64,000 bases of DNA from Podarcis vaucheri (lineage: Eukaryota). The DNA is taken from NCBI GenBank assembly GCA_965113315.1, contig OZ220375.1, one strand, 5' to 3'. The position numbers are program-made. Positions 46,001 through 58,000 of this stretch are shown here, piece after piece (positions within the stretch are counted from its first letter, which is position 1; each line of letters opens with the position of its first letter).

Positions 46001-49000
46001 GTCCTCTGAATCCCATGCTTTTGAGGAAGCTATTTCAAATTAATGTCACTTTCCAGCTTTGTTCTCCCCCCCCTCCAGGGGAAGGCAGCCAGCATTTCTC
46101 TGTAGTTTAAAAACAAGTGTCTTTACTCACCTGCATGAACAAACAAAAGTTTTCACTGTACTTGATTGAATGGGAACCCTTTTCAGACTGAGGACTAAAT
46201 TCCCCTCTGAGGACTATATTCCAATGGTGGGTGTCTCGAGAGATGAAAGTGGACAGAGCACCTAATGACATTCTCAGATTTCAAGGGCACTTCCAGCCAC
46301 ACAAAAAACACATGGGTGTTTGTGAAGTGGAGTCAGTGAAGGCTATAACCTGGGGAGAGTTCAGAGGGCCAGAGAGGGAAGTTTGGGGCTGACTTACAGC
46401 TTCTGAGATCCACCTTCCCCTGACTGAAACCACATGCCAGATGCCTATTCTCAACCATCCCACAGTATAGTTCTTCTCTCCTCAGTCTCTTCTTTCTATT
46501 TTGTTTCCCCTAAGCACTGTTTCCCCTTTGTTTCCCCTTTACTTTCCCCTAAGCACTGAGTTATTCTCAGCCTATCCTGTATTAGATTGTAATGAACCTC
46601 ACTGTAATAAAAAGGAATACTAAAGAAAAAGCAAGCTCAGCCTGTGTTCTTACCCAGTGCCAGTTAGCTCATCTTAATTCTCAAAGCACTGATTAAATCC
46701 CAGTACCCAGGAATCTAGAGGGAGTCGGGGCACCCACAAACCCATGATATTTACTGTGTGTAATCTCAAAAAAAAATGCAAAGGGATCTGGAAGTGATTG
46801 AAGAGAACTAAAAATATTTTTTTATAAGTTATTTAAATGATTCCATGTGAACCAGTTGATCTATTTACTTGAAGCACTACTTTTCTCTCACTCTTCAACC
46901 AAAAAGGTCTCCCACAGCAGTTTCTGCCAGTGATAGCCTGGGGTCAGCACTGGAGTCCATAACCTAAAATACATGAGTAAAATGGGAAAGGGGATTTGGA
47001 GGAATGTAGATGCCAGGGAATAAATTTAAAGGTTTACCGCTGCTGCTGCTGCTGCTGCTGCCGCTACTACTACTACTACTACTACTACTAATTGCCAGCA
47101 TATGTAATGCTTCTAATAATACAAACACTAATAATGTGACTGAGAAAGAGGAGGGGCCAAGGTGAAACAAGACAGATCCTTGAGAACTCATATATTTATT
47201 GATTCAAGAATTTATTTGTCCCTCTCTTCACTTAAGCAAATCTGCCACACCAGTAATTAGTATTAAAAACATGACACTCCATGACACAAATGGAAAGGAA
47301 ATTTGGAGAGATGTAGAGAGGGAAATAGTCTTACTGTGGAACTTCAGACAGATTCTGTGATGGAAGCTCTTTGAAGAACACGTCATAAAATACATAATAG
47401 AGCAGAGAAACAATCCCACCATTGATGAGACCACTTGGATGGTACCACTCATGTGGAACAGGAAACGGATAATTCACAGGGCACCTCAAAGTATCTTCTT
47501 TGCAGTCGACAATACCAAGAGCCAAAAATACCGACCCCCAACATCCTGGCCTCCTAGCTTCTCTAAAAATACAGACCTTCCTGTGCCCATCAGTATCAAG
47601 TTGTGTGGCAAGTTCCCTCCCCCAAAGAAATGAAGGCACAGGACACGTTAGTTAAGGTTAATGGGCGTAAATGGCCACAACTTTATTGATTACAGAATTG
47701 AAGGTATTGGCCTTAGGCATTGGTTCCTATGACTACCCGGCATGGTAACCGGGAAGGGTTGAACACAAACCGTGGGGGTGTCCTGCTGGAGTACGCCAGC
47801 TAGGACCCCCACGGGTGTCACCGCTCGTGGGCGTGCCGGCGGCCCTCACCTTACTAGGTCTCGGACAAGGCAAACGCCCCCGGAGTCCTCTACCGGACTA
47901 CCCTTTTCTCGGGGGAAGGTGATGGCGTGTCCTTCCCCCCCATCCATTTGCATCACAATAGACCCCTGCCAATGCCTAACCGCCAAAACCGTGAAAGTTG
48001 TGACGATTTGCTACGAGGTAGGCGAAAAAACCAAAAGGCTGCAAAGTCGCCAACTTGGAAAAATTCCTACCAGGCCCCTTGCGGCGACCAACCGAAGTCC
48101 ATAGCAAGGTCAAGACTGCCTAACCTAAGGGTGGGTGGGCTGGGAAAAGCTTCTCTGCTGCCGAGGGGAAAGAGGGGGATCCCGGGGCGTGCCTGGCCTT
48201 AAATAGCCCAGGCCACGCCTCCCCAGCCCGCCTATTGGCGGGCAGGGGGAAGGCGGAGAGGCACGCCCCCGGGGATTCCCTGGCTCTCGCGGGGCTAAAC
48301 TCCAGCCCCGCGCTTGTGGGAGGGGCCAGCCCACAACACCCTCTCCTCCCGAGGCTCGGAAATGGCTTTGTGTGGCAAGTTCCCTCCCCCAAAGAAATGA
48401 AGACACAGGACACGTTAGTTAAGGTTAATGGGCGTAAATGGCCACAACTTTATTGATTACAGAATTGAAGGTATTGGCCTTAGGCATTGGTTCCTATGAC
48501 TACCCGGCATGGTAACCGGGAAGGGTTGAACACAAACCGTGGGGGTGTCCTGCTGGAGTACGCCAGCTAGGACCCCCACGGGTGTCACCGCTCGTGGGCG
48601 TGCCGGCGGCCCTCACCTTACTAGGTCTCGGACAAGGCAAACGCCCCCGGAGTCCTCTACCGGACTACCCTTTTCTCGGGGGAAGGTGATGGCGTGTCCT
48701 TCCCCCCCATCCATTTGCATCACAATAGACCCCTGCCAATGCCTAACCGCCAAAACCGTGAAAGTTGTGACGATTTGCTACGAGGTAGGCGAAAAAACCA
48801 AAAGGCTGCAAAGTCGCCAACTTGGAAAAATTCCTACCAGGCCCCTTGCGGCGACCAACCGAAGTCCATAGCAAGGTCAAGACTGCCTAACCTAAGGGTG
48901 GGTGGGCTGGGAAAAGCTTCTCTGCTGCCGAGGGGAAAGAGGGGGATCCCGGGGCGTGCCTGGCCTTAAATAGCCCAGGCCACGCCTCCCCAGCCCGCCT

Positions 49001-55000: not shown

Positions 55001-58000
55001 AAAAAAAAAAAAAAACCAACTATTTAACTAATACTCTTCTTGTATTGCCAGAAATCTCTTACAATGCATAAACATGAACTGTTGTGTGACTAGCCTGGCT
55101 GCTAAAGGAGATATAACGCTGTAAAATAAGGTCTCCAAATCGCAGGCTGCAATAACAACTCCTGCCGCTAGGTGGCAGTGTTCCCTAGGAATTAGCAGAA
55201 AACAAACCCTCGGCTGCAGACAGAAAGGCAGTTCAATCACCAGAATATAAAGCAGCAAAAACTACTGAAAAACGGGCAATAACAGAAGGAAAAGCAACTA
55301 AATAATCTCTAAATAACAGAAGGAAAAGCGGAGATAAAAGTTAAATGGCCCTACTCAAAATGGCTGCCGGGACGCACCACGGCGACCTTACCAAGATGGC
55401 GGCCGGGAGGGAGATGCCCTCAGTCAAACTGGCGTCCCTCAACAATTATGGCCCTAAGTAACCAAACGTCCAGAAAGCGGTATTAAATGCAGGTACAACA
55501 ACAACCACTAAATATCAGAGGCAGAAACGGAGAAAACAATAAAATGTCACACTCAAAATGGCCGCCGCTGGAATGCCACGTGGACCTTCCCAAGATGGCG
55601 GCCGCTGTGACCTTCCTCCCTTACACAATTTCTGCTTCGTTTGCCCTTAAATATGGCGCCTGCCTCTCCTTAGCAGACTCCCTTGCCAAAGATGGCTGCC
55701 GCGACTTCAATCACCCCCCCCCCCACAAATACAGACAGCTGAAGAAACCACAGAAAAAACACAGCGATTTCGGCAAAATCAGCAGGTAAAATCGGAGGCA
55801 GCACGGGAGGGCTAGTGGCAAGGCACAGCGGCAGCGAAGTGAGAGGGGAGAGGAGAGGGGAGGGTTATGAGCAGAGGAAAGGCTACGGAGATGCAGCGCC
55901 ACGGGGATGGGACGGCAGCAGTACAGCAGAAATAGGCAGAATTAAAGCGACCAAGTTGTGGAACCAGCAGAATAAAGCAGGCAATCGCCGCGCAGGGGAA
56001 AATTCGGTCCTGTGGCCGCAGTGATACTATACCCGTCTTCTTTGCTGGTGTTCCGGTCTGAGCTGAAGGAAGCACCCTGCTCTGGACGGATTTTTGTGCA
56101 GGTAGAGTAGGAAGGTAAGGAAAAAGAAAGCTTCTCTGCTGCCGAGGGGAAAGAGGGGGATCCCGGGGCGTGCCTGGCCTTAAATAGCCCAGGCCACGCC
56201 TCCCCAGCCCGCCTATTGGCGGGCAGGGGGAAGGCGGAGAGGCACGCCCCCGGGGATTCCCTGGCTCTCGCGGGGCTAAACTCCAGCCCCGCGCTTGTGG
56301 GAGGGGCCAGCCCACAACACCCTCTCCTCCCGAGGCTCGGAAATGGCTTTATCGTCTTGAGCATGATACTATGAGTGATGCTTGGCCTTGCCAACTCAGT
56401 TCTAAAACAGAGTTCTGTGAGCTGTTTCTGATAGTCAAAAGATTACAAATGAAACAGTAGATGAGATTGCCAACACTCTGATTTAGGTCTGGCAAAAAAG
56501 TCAGAAATTAAACTGATGAAGTATTGTTCATCTTTTGCCCCTATTCCCAGTTCTCCATGGCACCTGGTATTATTTATAATGGTTTCCAGGCTTGTATTTT
56601 TGACATCCATAGTGACAGTGCTTAAGTGTAGTGTTTAAGAGTGGTGGACTCGTAATTTGATGAACCGGGTTTGCTTCCCTGCACCTCCACATGCAGCTGC
56701 TGGGTGACCTTGGGCTAGACACACTTCTCTGAAGTCTCTCGGCCTCACTTACCTCACAGAGTGTTTGTTGTAGGGGAGGAAGGGAAAAGAGATTGTTAGC
56801 CGCTTTCAGACTCCTTAAGGGGAGTGAAAGGCAGGATATCAAGTCCAAACTCCTCCTCCTCCTCCTCTTCTTCCTCTTCCTCTTCCTTCTAAGAAACCTC
56901 TATGGCTGTCAGGCTTCAGGGAATTAGCTTCTTCCCACTGTGGTGGCAGTAGATAAGCAGAACAAAGGAAAGGAGTCTTCTTACCAGTTAGAAACTTTAA
57001 TAATCACAGCGAGAGAACAAAGAACAAACTTCCTAGAAATGGCGGTGCTCCCAATTAAGTTCACCAACTCTCCCATCCCTTATTAATCTACATCTTCTAA
57101 TCTGAGTTTGGAACTGCTGTGTTTTCTATTCTGCCACTTTCTGAGCTCTCTGGGACTTTGGGGAAGGGGAGGTAGATACTCTCCAGAAACTGTAAATCTG
57201 TTAACCCTCTCTCTTCCAGTGTTTCTTCTCGTAGTTGTTCCCCATCCAGTATTTCCCAGCTTCTGCCTTCTGAACTATATCCTTCTGCAAACCACTGTTC
57301 CAAATCTTTACTGTCCTCCTGCTCCTGTGAAGATTCAGGATTTGGATCAGGAGCTCCTGTGAAGATTCAGGATCCAGATCAGGAGGGGGAGGCTCCCACC
57401 ATTCCTCCTCAGTGCAGCCCTCCTCAGAACGGTCCCTGATACTGCATTTGATTATGGTGAACAAATCATGGTGATTTGGATGATTGCAGGGAGAGATAAT
57501 AACTTTCTCAGATGTTTAGCTCAGAGTGGCACTTTTGGCAACCAAGATGCTGGTGCTTGTGTGTTTACTCTAAATTGACTACGTTTCTGCTCCCTTATGG
57601 CACAAAAAATGGCAATTGGTTTTCTGTTTTCCCATGTGAGTCAATGCCAATCAAAGTGAAGCCATTTTCTTTGGAGTTGCAAAACGTAGCAAATTCAAAT
57701 ACAATGGAATCAGTTTAAGACAAAGGTATCACTCAGTTTTTCTCAATATTTGCTCCCTATTGTCCAGCTCAGGCCTCAGCACAATGGTGTAACACTTCAG
57801 GGCAAAGACAATCCCTCCCTCAAAAGACTGCCACTCTGGAGACATTCTTAGTCATGGGCTGTATACTAAAACCCTTAATATAGAAAAAATCAATAAGATA
57901 ATAACAAAAGTATTACTCAGTTCTTTCTCATTATTTGCTCCCTATTGTTCAGCTCAGGCCTCAGCACAATGATGTAGCATTTACGGGCAAAAATGCAGCC

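What the first reader, a model, noticed from the sequence alone, without database searches (positions are those of the whole stretch)
47603..56350. Intact, very young Ngaro-type YR retrotransposon with four open ORFs inside a V2R cluster
Seen: gag, RT/RNase H, tyrosine recombinase and SGNH hydrolase are all uninterrupted, catalytic residues are present, the sequence is CpG-rich, and the repeat copies are essentially identical. Established: Ngaro elements have split direct repeats and lack the methyltransferase of DIRS1 elements, and some vertebrate Ngaro families carry a hydrolase ORF. Inference: this is a recent, possibly active family, perhaps an uncatalogued lizard subfamily.
[Added by the scan's program, not by the reader: the finding's places include an assembly gap (unread letters, written N; its length is only estimated) at 54351 to 54528. 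Whether the letters on both sides are continuous or in frame is not known: test that first.]
Basis: partly seen in the sequence, partly recalled or inferred. Interest (0 to 1): 0.7.

Follow-up and report, generated by a model that had tools for sequence, protein, structure and literature searches.

The report
Young Ngaro-like retrotransposon, lizard V2R cluster
A recently inserted jumping gene of the tyrosine-recombinase (Ngaro) kind, with all four of its genes still readable, lies between pheromone-receptor genes of a lizard; it is a well-preserved example of a known but little-described kind, not a new kind.

Summary
On the minus strand, 56350 to 47601, lies one insertion of about 8.75 kb. 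It holds a 224-nt repeat A1, a 2.1-kb leader, four open ORFs and a 3' repeat array. The ORFs are a gag-like zinc-finger protein, RT/RNase H, a tyrosine recombinase and an SGNH esterase. All catalytic residues are in place. CpG o/e is 0.67 against 0.22 for the rest of the window. The repeat copies differ at 1 of 767 columns. A paralogous empty site shows an exact insertion with no target duplication. Every Ngaro-defining feature I could test is met: split direct repeats, gene order, no methyltransferase, no inverted repeats. A phylogeny with labelled references could not be run. The RT/RH sits in a lacertid-only clade, 77-79% identical to its nearest public relatives.

Caveats:
- The assembly gap lies in the non-coding leader, 98 nt before ORF1. 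It touches no ORF, but continuity is unproven.
- It sits in an AT-rich block of unknown origin.
- The 3' array has an extra unit and a 160-nt spacer (B1-A2-X-B2-A3-X-B3).
- "gag" is a label by position only.
- Activity and catalogue status are untested.

Verdict: a new member of a known kind, of moderate interest.

The parts
56127..56350 (-). A1, the 5' terminal repeat (224 nt). It carries a CCAAT motif (56219-56215) and a TATA-like motif (56186-56179).
   Evidence: It is 100% identical to A2 and A3. The motifs were located. Reading them as a promoter is an inference from the motifs alone.
54254..56126 (-). 5' leader, about 1.87 kb and non-coding. It includes the assembly gap 54351-54528, an AT-rich block (about 55062 to 54281), and an imperfect duplication of about 200 nt (55270-55405 and 55474-55604).
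   Evidence: There are 25-27 stops in each sense frame. No Pfam match was found for its two longest ORFs. The internal repeats are and the GC steps. CpG o/e is 0.65-0.66.
52733..54253 (-). ORF1, 506 aa, gag-like by position. The N-terminal half is predicted disordered. The C-terminal half is conserved and ends in a CCCH finger followed by a CCHC-like knuckle.
   Evidence: The search gave 43 relatives; all but two unnamed ones carry lacertid names. The best is 75% identical over full length. Relatives share the same start, and the Cys/His columns are invariant in the alignment (14 of the 43 hits aligned). The family profile matches the MBNL1 CCCH fingers at 5.7e-5. Of 15 members, 5 match zf-CCCH_10. 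The model has mean pLDDT 45 and gives no fold match.
51061..52653 (-). ORF2, RT/RNase H, 530 aa from the first ATG. The open frame runs upstream to 52914 and overlaps ORF1 by 182 nt.
   Evidence: RVT_1 matches at 4e-14. The family profile matches foamy-virus and Ty3 RT at 2.6e-6 to 3e-5. D239, D307, D308 (YLDD), D470, E507 and D582 are invariant across 23 sequences. Conservation against P0021 begins near the first Met.
50171..51061 (-). ORF3, tyrosine recombinase, 296 aa. Its ATG overlaps the ORF2 stop by 1 nt (TAATG).
   Evidence: The family profile matches Cre over its full length at 2e-14. K182, H257, R260, W283 and Y291 are invariant and R145 nearly so. The window's own sequence aligns these motifs with Cre and Tre. 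Of 31 members, 22 match Phage_integrase. The junction was read.
49547..50161 (-). ORF4, SGNH/GDSL-type esterase, 204 aa, 9 nt after the ORF3 stop.
   Evidence: The GHS, G59, GEND and DGVH blocks are conserved in 19 sequences. Of 19 members, 10 match Lipase_GDSL_2. The model has pLDDT 91.2 and pTM 0.86. Foldseek gives 168 PDB matches at E<=0.001, and the listed ones are SGNH/GDSL hydrolases or designed scaffolds. The best sequence-profile match is 4c1b, the ZfL2-1 LINE ORF1p esterase, at 3e-5.
49137..49519 (-). B1 (383 nt), starting 27 nt after the ORF4 stop. It contains AATAAA at 49221-49216, 79 nt before its end.
48913..49136 (-). A2 (224 nt).
48753..48912 (-). X, a 160-nt spacer between A2 and B2. 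It is absent after A1 and absent before B1.
   Evidence: It matches only its own second copy.
48370..48752 (-). B2 (383 nt), identical to B1.
48146..48369 (-). A3 (224 nt), part of the extra unit.
47986..48145 (-). Second copy of the spacer X (160 nt).
   Evidence: 160 of 160 identical.
47601..47985 (-). B3 (383 nt) plus 2 nt (47601-47602) that equal the first two bases of A. B3 carries the only difference among the repeat copies.
47511..47600 (.). Host flank on the low-coordinate side of the element.
   Evidence: It aligns to paralog 1 up to its last base: 47602 pairs with 6840. The score is 66 against a shuffle maximum of 42.
56351..56470 (.). Host flank on the high-coordinate side of the element.
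   Evidence: It aligns to paralog 1 from 56356, which pairs with 6834. The 5 unaligned bases fill 6839-6835. The score is 108 against a shuffle maximum of 43. The two flanks therefore abut in the paralog.

Best explanation
This is one copy of a Ngaro-like (order DIRS) tyrosine-recombinase retrotransposon. It inserted recently and precisely into a V2R gene cluster of a lizard, probably a lacertid, and its coding part is intact.

Likely life cycle (steps 1-3 are inferred, steps 4-5 partly shown):
1. Transcription starts at a CCAAT/TATA-type promoter inside A1, so the RNA lacks most of A. It ends at the AAUAAA inside a B copy, so it also lacks the last 60 nt or so of B.
2. The RNA carries four tightly packed ORFs: a zinc-finger RNA-binding protein, RT/RNase H, a Cre-like recombinase and an SGNH esterase. 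The spacing is a 79-nt gap, then a 1-nt stop/start overlap, then a 9-nt gap. This suggests coupled termination and reinitiation, or subgenomic RNAs.
3. RT copies the RNA. The internal B-A junction serves as the template that rebuilds the missing ends and brings them together. This is the published split-direct-repeat model.
4. The recombinase joins the B-A junction of the closed DNA to a short T run in the target. Nothing is duplicated and nothing is lost.
5. The esterase has an SGNH fold with all its catalytic blocks. By sequence, its nearest solved relative is the lipid-binding esterase of a LINE ORF1 protein. Its role is unknown.

The extra A-X-B unit is best explained by template switching, by recombination between repeat copies, or by a wrong copy count in the assembly.
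For: Protein domains.

Architecture. A1 is followed by the leader, the ORFs and then B1-A2-(X)-B2-A3-(X)-B3. The three A copies are identical, and B1 equals B2 over all 383 positions. No inverted repeat of 30 nt or more lies in 46000-58000.

No methyltransferase. ORF2 ends just after the RNase H motifs. All 22 aligned relatives end at most 39 aa past its C-terminus, and 21 of them at most 14 aa.

Shared gene order. Podarcis gene models fuse a YR part with the hydrolase (P0010). P0027 and P0030 came back in both the ORF1 and the ORF2 search.

Exact insertion. The two host flanks abut at 6840|6839 of a paralogous empty site. On the + strand the ends read host-TT-B and A-TTT-host, and the internal A/B junction reads TTT. 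This fits the published idea that a junction trinucleotide defines the integration site and that no target duplication results (PMC3266345, passages; PMC7192593, passages).

Youth. There is 1 difference in 2141 monitored repeat positions. CpG o/e is 0.67 against 0.22. All ORFs are open.

Placement. In a neighbour-joining tree of the RT/RH core (44 sequences, 463 columns, 100 bootstraps) the window falls in a lacertid-only clade of 12 (bootstrap 100). It is sister to four P. muralis sequences (bootstrap 93) at 77-79% identity.

Known parallel. Xenopus Ngaro-like families have the same four ORFs and split direct repeats (PMC9210276, passages and Discussion).
Against: - No labelled Ngaro, DIRS1 or PAT references could be brought in. 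Structure-based classes are known to be homoplasious: a C. briggsae 'Ngaro' lineage is a Pat1 that lost its MT domain (PMC4157794, passages).
- The 3' array departs from A1...B1-A2-B2. It has an extra unit and a 160-nt spacer that neither follows A1 nor precedes B1.
- The leader holds an unread gap inside an AT-rich block. That block has an A16 run on the opposite strand, so a nested retroposon is possible, and the element would then not be intact.
- The window's own YR and hydrolase score below the Pfam gathering cut-offs (19.3 vs 27.1 bits and 16.1 vs 32.9 bits). The assignments rest on family profiles and on the fold.
- ORF1 shows no capsid-like fold.
- Only one copy was seen. Its exact proteins are not in the public collection, so nothing shows that a family is active.
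- The promoter, poly(A) and translation steps rest on motifs only.
- Identity among tandem copies could reflect gene conversion or assembly collapse.
Confidence: 0.85

Rival explanations
1. It is a PAT-like or DIRS1-like derivative that lost its methyltransferase and only looks like Ngaro.
For: Loss of MT and gain of split direct repeats have happened more than once (PMC4157794, passages). PAT-like elements also have split direct repeats. I ran no labelled phylogeny.
Against: None of the 22 aligned relatives, from squamates, amphibians and a mollusc, has a C-terminal extension that could hold an MT domain. The SGNH ORF after YR is reported for Ngaro-like elements only (PMC9210276; PMC7192593). 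There are no inverted repeats and no ICR. The ORFs barely overlap, as described for Ngaro (PMC3266345).
Confidence: 0.06
2. The locus is partly an assembly artefact. Either the scaffold joins two different partial copies across the gap, or the number of 767-nt units is wrong, or the AT-rich block is foreign sequence or filler. In that case it is not one intact element.
For: There is an assembly gap of estimated length inside the element. Perfectly identical 767-nt tandem units are hard to count in an assembly. The AT-rich block (GC 0.18-0.45) differs from the rest of the element and matches nothing else in the window.
Against: The outer flanks of the two contigs abut exactly in a paralogous empty site, which supports the scaffold join at the level of the locus. 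Both sides of the gap share GC (0.37 and 0.36) and CpG o/e (0.80 and 0.65, on few CpGs). A1 is identical to A2 and A3.
Confidence: 0.15
3. It is an old, fixed and inactive copy. Its repeats were kept alike by gene conversion, and its ORFs are open by chance or through host use.
For: Tandem and nearby repeats can be homogenised. Only one copy is visible. No closer relative than 62-79% identity exists in public protein sets.
Against: CpG o/e is 0.67 across the whole 8.6 kb, unique parts included, against 0.22 around it. About 1536 codons in four ORFs are open. A1 lies 7 kb from A2 and is still 224 of 224 identical.
Confidence: 0.07

Closest known systems
[quoted passage not shown]
   Same: Four ORFs in the order gag-like, RT/RH, YR, SGNH hydrolase. 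Split direct repeats with identical copies (A 236 nt and B 152 nt in DIRS-53_XT). No MT domain. Some copies described there as potentially active. Xenopus proteins appear among the RT/RH hits at 46-50% identity (P0065, P0069).
   Different: Here the ORFs barely overlap, whereas in Xenopus all are reported to overlap. B is 383 nt. There is an extra A-X-B unit with a 160-nt spacer, and the leader is about 1.9 kb long. ORF1 relatives were found only in lacertids. Whether P0065 and P0069 are those Repbase families is unknown.
Ngaro elements of Cafeteria burkhardae (PMC8547959; passages read)
   Same: A1-[ORFs]-B1A2B2 layout with gag-like, RT/RH and YR ORFs. The GC-rich element stands out from AT-richer surroundings. 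Solo AB units exist there, showing that AB units can occur on their own.
   Different: No hydrolase ORF is reported there. The host is a protist. No sequence comparison was made.
DIRS1-like elements
   Same: YR-based retrotransposons. Integration at a short junction sequence without target duplication. A T-rich terminal signature (TTT) is reported for Xenopus DIRS-like copies.
   Different: DIRS1-like elements have inverted terminal repeats plus an internal complementary region, an MT domain and overlapping ORFs. None of these is present here.
PAT-like elements
   Same: Split direct repeats.
   Different: PAT-like elements encode an MT domain. None is present here.
Esterase domain of zebrafish ZfL2-1 LINE ORF1p (PDB 4c1b; PMC3905857, passages read)
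   Same: Best sequence-profile match of the ORF4 family among solved structures (E 3e-5; the next is 0.038). SGNH fold. It also appears in the fold search (E 9.7e-7). That paper reports a weak esterase that binds negatively charged phospholipids.
   Different: By fold it ranks only 36th (TMq 0.43). Bacterial GDSL hydrolases and designed scaffolds fit better (TMq up to 0.74). The crystal is domain-swapped, which may explain the low score. Here the esterase is a separate last ORF of a YR element, not a domain of a LINE ORF1p. That paper does not mention DIRS or Ngaro (0 occurrences).
Cre recombinase of phage P1
   Same: The ORF3 family profile matches it over full length (2e-14). The Arg, His-x-x-Arg, Trp and Tyr motifs align in the window's own sequence.
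   Different: Only remote sequence similarity: the single-sequence E-value is 0.3-0.5. No recognisable inverted binding sites were found at the B/A junction.

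Membership tests
Ngaro-like retrotransposons (order DIRS) | Encodes RT/RNase H together with a tyrosine recombinase | tested here: met
   RVT_1 at 4e-14. RT profile against the PDB. RT and RNase H acidic residues invariant. YR profile against Cre at 2e-14. Catalytic residues present.
Ngaro-like retrotransposons (order DIRS) | Gene order gag-like, RT/RH, YR on one strand, with the internal repeats downstream of YR | tested here: met
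   Definition taken from PMC4157794 and PMC9210276.
Ngaro-like retrotransposons (order DIRS) | Split direct repeats A1...B1-A2-B2, with A1 equal to A2 and B1 equal to B2 | tested here: met
   A1=A2=A3 over 224 of 224 positions and B1=B2 over 383 of 383. The form is extended, B1-A2-X-B2-A3-X-B3. 'Other configurations exist' (PMC8969392).
Ngaro-like retrotransposons (order DIRS) | No methyltransferase domain | tested here: met
   ORF2 ends after RNase H. All 22 aligned relatives end at most 39 aa beyond it. No MT family appears in Pfam even at E<=10.
Ngaro-like retrotransposons (order DIRS) | No target-site duplication | tested here: met
   The flanks abut exactly in the paralogous empty site. 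No direct repeat is seen at the ends.
Ngaro-like retrotransposons (order DIRS) | RT/RH and YR cluster with reference Ngaro elements in a labelled phylogeny | not testable with these tools
   No tool fetches reference proteins by name or accession. A paper showed accessions (AAN71721 for Ngaro, AF442732 for DIRS), but I could not retrieve them. The unlabelled tree shows only a squamate/amphibian family.
Ngaro-like retrotransposons (order DIRS) | Optional in vertebrates: an SGNH hydrolase ORF after YR | tested here: met
DIRS1-like | Inverted terminal repeats plus an internal complementary region | tested here: not met
   0 inverted repeat pairs of 30 nt or more in 46000-58000.
DIRS1-like and PAT-like | Methyltransferase domain after RT/RH | tested here: not met
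SGNH/GDSL hydrolases (ORF4) | Conserved blocks with Ser, Gly, Asn and Asp-x-x-His | tested here: met
   GHS at 24-26 and GEND at 87-90; G24, H25, S26, G87 and N89 are invariant. G59 is at 90% or more. DGVH lies near 178-181, in the window's own row of A2. Naming these as blocks I, II, III and V is recalled. The catalytic roles are as given for ZfL2-1 in PMC3905857.
SGNH/GDSL hydrolases (ORF4) | Flavodoxin-like SGNH fold | tested here: met
   Model pLDDT 91.2. 168 PDB matches at E<=0.001, with the top TMq 0.6-0.74 to GDSL/SGNH enzymes.
SGNH/GDSL hydrolases (ORF4) | Pfam Lipase_GDSL_2 gathering score | tested here: inconclusive
   The window's own sequence scores 16.1 bits against a cut-off of 32.9. 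Of 19 family members, 10 match at E<=0.001. Of the 7 homologues listed with scores, only P0009 reaches the cut-off (33.1).
Tyrosine recombinases (ORF3) | Catalytic Arg, Lys, His-x-x-Arg, Trp/His and Tyr | tested here: met
   R145, K182, H257, R260, W283 and Y291. The Pfam scores of the window's own sequence are below the cut-off. Of 31 relatives, 22 match PF00589.
Retroviral-type Gag (ORF1) | Capsid-like fold | tested here: inconclusive
   The model has mean pLDDT 45 and pTM 0.33. There are 0 fold matches at E<=0.001. No Pfam capsid family was found.
Retroviral-type Gag (ORF1) | Zinc-finger nucleic-acid-binding module | tested here: met
   Invariant CCCH followed by C-x2-C-x3-H-x4-C. The profile matches the MBNL1 fingers at 5.7e-5.

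The most novel reading that the evidence does not exclude
This copy may stand for a still-proliferating, lacertid-specific Ngaro lineage with three unusual traits.
- Its 3' repeat array can grow by whole A-X-B units, a footprint of template switching or of recombinase-driven tandem integration.
- Its long leader carries its own regulatory architecture: duplicated monomers with GCCAT[CT]TT motifs, and an AT-rich stretch bounded by splice-like GT...AG signals.
- Its esterase is shared with LINE ORF1 proteins, which would mean that a module was exchanged between two orders of retrotransposons.

An open-access paper states that Ngaro is absent from lizards (PMC4746887). A live lineage in lacertids would correct that picture.
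Probability: 0.2. Interest if true: 0.5.

Novelty: new member of a known kind. Interest (0 to 1): 0.33.

Why it matters
Tyrosine-recombinase retrotransposons are rare and poorly understood, and nearly all mechanistic work is on Dictyostelium DIRS-1. A complete, undecayed vertebrate Ngaro copy with both junctions and an empty paralogous site gives three things:
- a clean view of the integration product: an exact insertion at a T run with no duplication;
- a clean view of the repeat logic that the replication model needs;
- a clean view of the four-gene set, including the enigmatic esterase.

It also has a practical side. Lizard genome annotations currently list these ORFs as host genes, for example 'finger 703-like' and 'integrase/recombinase xerD homolog'. 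The open literature I could search is thin or contradictory on Ngaro in squamates. For the V2R cluster itself the insertion sits beside an orphan exon-1-like fragment between two convergent genes, so an effect on an intact gene is not evident.

Tried and rejected
- Tandem Repeats Finder missed the 767-nt array because its longest period is 500. I used BLAST and the repeat finder instead.
- Rfam at E<=1 and ARAGORN found nothing in 47000-57000.
- The single-sequence PDB search with ORF4 gave only chance hits.
- NCBIfam gave only weak Xer-type hits for ORF3.
- The ESM Atlas does not hold ORF1. A stored homologue gave only unnamed clusters.
- The ORF1 structure model was poor and its fold search empty. 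'gag' therefore stays a positional label.
- I looked for recombinase-site-like inverted repeats at the B/A junction and found none.
- Nested retroposon in the leader. An A16 run with an upstream AATAAA lies on the + strand, but the only candidate target duplication is a 12-15-nt imperfect match in AT-rich sequence. I rate this as weak and did not excise anything.
- Intron reading of the AT-rich block. The only GT[AG]AG[AT] on the sense strand of the leader is at 55062, exactly where GC drops, and a pyrimidine tract followed by CAG lies 28 nt before the ORF1 ATG.
- Frameshift expression of ORF2 is not needed. The part of the frame that overlaps ORF1 is not conserved.
- Labelled phylogeny. No named Ngaro, DIRS1 or PAT proteins came back from any search, and accessions seen in a paper could not be fetched.
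- Goodwin & Poulter 2004 is not held. What I say of its model comes from passages in later papers and from recall.
- The genome-contig collection was not scanned, because it holds only bacteria and archaea.
- Repbase and Dfam are not available.
- Supplements were closed. Tables S1 and S2 of PMC9210276 may bear on ORF sizes and on repeat variants.

Full report
1. WHAT IS THERE

The feature is real and lies on the minus strand. Read 5' to 3' on that strand it consists of the following.
- A 224-nt repeat A1 (56350-56127).
- A non-coding leader of about 1.87 kb (56126-54254).
- Four ORFs.
- A repeat array (49519-47601) made of a 767-nt unit repeated 2.5 times.

In terms of the split-direct-repeat nomenclature the array reads B1 (383 nt), A2 (224), X (160), B2 (383), A3 (224), X (160), B3 (383), plus two bases that equal the start of A. 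The three A copies are identical. B1 and B2 are identical, as are the two X copies. The outermost copy B3 carries the only difference, 1 variable column of 767. No inverted repeat of 30 nt or more exists in 46000-58000. The whole element spans 8750 positions, of which 178 are unread.

2. THE GAP, TESTED FIRST

The only N run in the window is 54351-54528. It lies in the leader, 98 nt upstream of the ORF1 ATG. All three sense frames carry stops on both sides of it, and two in-frame stops lie between the gap and the ATG. ORF1 starts at the same residues as its relatives. The gap therefore cannot interrupt or shift any of the four ORFs.

Whether the two sides are contiguous cannot be shown from the window. 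Two things speak for the join:
- The outer flanks of the two contigs abut exactly in a paralogous empty site (section 5).
- Both sides of the gap have the same composition, GC 0.37 and 0.36.

3. THE PROTEINS

ORF2. It matches Pfam RVT_1 at 4e-14. A profile of the window's ORF2 with 22 of the 120 listed relatives matches foamy-virus, Ty3 and caulimovirus RT structures at 2.6e-6 to 7e-5. The acidic residues of the RT (D239 and the YLDD pair D307, D308) and of RNase H (D470, E507, D582) are invariant across the 23 sequences. The listed frame of 617 codons overlaps ORF1 by 182 nt. That part is not conserved against the Zootoca relative P0021, and similarity begins near the first Met. The likely protein is therefore 530 aa, starting at 52653, 79 nt after the ORF1 stop.

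ORF3. Its own Pfam scores are below the cut-off. The library of 1.84 billion representatives holds 14875 relatives at E<=0.001 and 506 at E<=1e-30. A profile of the window's ORF3 with 30 of the 150 listed matches Cre recombinase over full length at 2e-14. Of the 31 members, 22 match Phage_integrase. K182, H257, R260, W283 and Y291 are invariant and R145 nearly so. In the window's own pairwise alignment these residues sit opposite the Arg, His-x-x-Arg, Trp and Tyr motifs of Cre and Tre.

ORF4. Its own Pfam E-value is only 0.016. All 18 relatives found were aligned. They carry lizard names (Podarcis, Zootoca, Sphaerodactylus) or none. They share GHS, a Gly, GxND and a D-x-x-H block, and 10 of the 19 members match Lipase_GDSL_2. 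The AlphaFold model is confident, with pLDDT 91.2 and pTM 0.86. Foldseek returns 168 PDB matches at E<=0.001, and the top ones are GDSL/SGNH hydrolases at TMq 0.6-0.74.

By sequence profile the best solved relative is 4c1b (E 3e-5; the next is 0.038). The depositors' paper identifies 4c1b as the SGNH esterase of the zebrafish ZfL2-1 LINE ORF1 protein, a weak esterase that binds negatively charged phospholipids (PMC3905857, passages). By fold 4c1b ranks only 36th (TMq 0.43). That crystal is domain-swapped, so the special link to LINE esterases rests on sequence alone.

ORF1. It has 43 relatives. All but two unnamed ones carry lacertid names. The best is 75% identical over full length. The N-terminal half is low in complexity and predicted disordered. 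The C-terminal half is conserved and ends in an invariant CCCH finger followed by a C-x2-C-x3-H-x4-C knuckle (14 of the 43 hits aligned). The profile matches the CCCH fingers of MBNL1 at 5.7e-5. No capsid family or fold was found (the model is poor). 'gag' is thus a label by position, and an RNA-binding role is the supported part.

4. YOUTH

CpG o/e is 0.67 over the element against 0.22 for the rest of the window. The unique parts of the element have the same value as the repeats. Outside the element, only 1-kb patches upstream of V2R first exons come close. All four ORFs are open. The longest stop-free run is 628 codons, against a maximum of 278 in 200 Markov resamples.

One difference in 2141 monitored repeat positions (3 x 224 + 3 x 383 + 2 x 160) gives roughly 0.5 million years, with an upper bound near 2 million years. 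This assumes that all copies were identical at insertion and that the neutral rate is 1e-9 per site per year. The rate is an assumed, recalled figure and the arithmetic is by hand. From A1 against A2 alone the bound is about 7 million years. Gene conversion or assembly collapse could make the tandem copies look younger than they are.

5. THE INSERTION SITE

The window is a cluster of V2R-type genes. Of 13 long ORFs, 6 match 7tm_3 and 5 match ANF_receptor, and a further 3 of 10 ORFs match ANF_receptor. These exons were searched one by one and the joined gene models were left out. The element lies between the last exons of two convergent genes (44876-45775 on +, 58855-57917 on -).

Its low-coordinate flank holds an orphan segment that resembles V2R exon 1 and is open on the minus strand (about 47500-47340). 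Four + strand genes of the window have the same exon.

Against the closest paralog the two host flanks align significantly: scores 66 and 108, against shuffle maxima of 42 and 43. They end and begin at adjacent paralog positions, 6840 and 6839. The insertion is therefore exact, with no target duplication and no loss.

On the + strand the left end reads host-TT-B and the right end reads A-TTT-host. The internal A/B junction reads TTT, and the paralog has TT at the site. This is what a conservative crossover inside a short T run would leave. It matches the published idea that a junction trinucleotide defines DIRS integration sites (PMC3266345 and PMC7192593, passages; the TTT signature in Xenopus DIRS-like copies, PMC9210276 Discussion).

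6. HOW IT MOST LIKELY WORKS

What is shown: the domains, the repeat layout and the exact insertion. What is inferred from motifs is the following.
- A holds a CCAAT motif and a TATA-like motif 52-59 nt before its end.
- Each B holds AATAAA 79 nt before its end.
- An RNA would therefore lack most of A1 and the tail of the last B.
- In the published split-direct-repeat model the internal B-A junction restores these ends. That is why the repeats are identical at insertion (PMC6681497, passages).

The ORFs are packed tightly: a 79-nt gap, then TAATG, then a 9-nt gap. This suggests termination-reinitiation or subgenomic RNAs. I have no evidence to choose between them.

7. DEPARTURES FROM THE TEXTBOOK FORM

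(a) The array has an extra A-X-B unit. The 160-nt spacer X neither follows A1 nor precedes B1, and it matches nothing else in the window. A curation guide notes that 'other configurations exist' (PMC8969392, passage), and solo AB units are known in Cafeteria (PMC8547959, passages). Template switching, recombination between copies, or a wrong unit count in the assembly would each explain it.

(b) The leader is long and internally duplicated (55270-55405 and 55474-55604, 72% identical). It carries 5 of the window's 12 GCCAT[CT]TT motifs, all on the sense strand.

(c) An AT-rich block (about 55062-54281) contains the gap. It may be native, it may be an intron, or it may be a nested antisense retroposon. 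None of these could be settled.

8. CLASSIFICATION

Every Ngaro-defining feature that I could test is met:
- RT/RH plus YR.
- Gene order, with the internal repeats downstream of YR.
- Split direct repeats.
- No inverted repeats or internal complementary region.
- No methyltransferase. All 22 aligned relatives end at most 39 aa past the ORF2 C-terminus.
- No target duplication.
- The SGNH ORF, which is reported for Ngaro-like elements.

DIRS1-like and PAT-like each fail on a tested defining feature.

The one test I could not run is the tree with labelled references. This matters, because structural classes of these elements are known to be homoplasious (PMC4157794, passages).

An unlabelled neighbour-joining tree of the RT/RH core was built from the window plus the 43 hits of the 120 listed that carry an organism name (463 columns, 100 bootstraps). 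It puts the window in a lacertid-only clade of 12 (bootstrap 100). There it is sister to four Podarcis muralis sequences (bootstrap 93) at 77-79% identity. Other squamates and amphibians lie further out.

Relatives share the gene order. P0010 fuses a YR part with the hydrolase. P0027 and P0030 came back in both the ORF1 and the ORF2 search.

9. NOVELTY

This is a new member of a known kind. The exact proteins are not in the public collection of 15 billion, and the nearest are 62-79% identical. Whether the family is catalogued in Repbase or Dfam could not be checked.

In the library I could search:
- Ngaro with Podarcis gave 0 papers.
- Ngaro with squamate gave 4 papers.
- Ngaro with lizard gave 15 papers.
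- Ngaro with Anolis gave 9 papers.

None of these has a lizard Ngaro element in its title or abstract listing. One paper states that Ngaro is absent from lizards and Xenopus (PMC4746887, passage). Another reports it in Xenopus and mentions reptiles in general terms (PMC9210276). Ngaro with esterase gave 19 papers, and none of the 10 listed is relevant.

10. LIMITS

- Only one copy was seen.
- No DNA of relatives was available.
- There are no expression data.
- Supplements were closed.
- Nothing in the window was taken for human.

Noticed in passing
window 47340-47500 (minus strand): An orphan V2R exon-1-like segment, open in frame, lies about 100 nt from the element's 3' end, with no downstream exons on that strand. 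The same exon occurs in four + strand genes (near 6921-7122, 16786-16942, 27271-27436 and 36009-36182). The element sits in what would be its upstream region, in the same orientation.
   Followed up: partly
window 55357-55696 (minus strand): Five sense-strand GCCAT[CT]TT motifs lie in the leader, arranged in an imperfect duplication of about 200 nt. They are 5 of the 12 such motifs in the whole window on both strands. The motif resembles the YY1 core site (recalled). A second TATTTAAG lies at 55653-55646.
   Followed up: partly
window 54281-55062: An AT-rich block lies inside the leader and contains the gap. Its sense-strand bounds look like splice signals (GTAAGA ... Y-tract CAG). The opposite strand has an A16 run at about 55000-55016 with AATAAA about 45 nt before it. 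It may be native leader, an intron or a nested retroposon; this is undecided.
   Followed up: partly
window 3401-4003 (minus strand): A 200-aa ORF matches RVT_1 at 1e-17. It is a fragment of a different retroelement in the intergenic space of the V2R cluster.
   Followed up: no
window 5251-7000, 15001-17000, 25501-27250: Patches of 1-2 kb with CpG o/e of 0.5-0.68 lie upstream of the first exons of successive V2R genes. One of them (GC 0.55) holds a 220-aa ORF, 26083-26745 on the minus strand, with no Pfam match.
   Followed up: no
proteins P0139-P0146, P0178 (Podarcis gene models): Public lizard annotations name ORFs of this element family as host genes: 'finger 703-like', 'integrase/recombinase xerD homolog' and 'ribonuclease H'. 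One model fuses such a piece to an OCRL-like phosphatase (P0179).
   Followed up: no
literature: PMC4746887 says that Ngaro is absent from Xenopus tropicalis and lizards. Yet the RT/RH search returns clear relatives from Anolis carolinensis, A. sagrei, Eublepharis, Hemicordylus, Rhineura, a snake and many frogs, and PMC9210276 describes Ngaro-like families in Xenopus.
   Followed up: partly
window 57321-57385 and 47064-47090: Small tandem repeats lie in the host flanks: a 32-nt unit x2 and (CTA)9. The CTA run recurs near 2801-2845.
   Followed up: no
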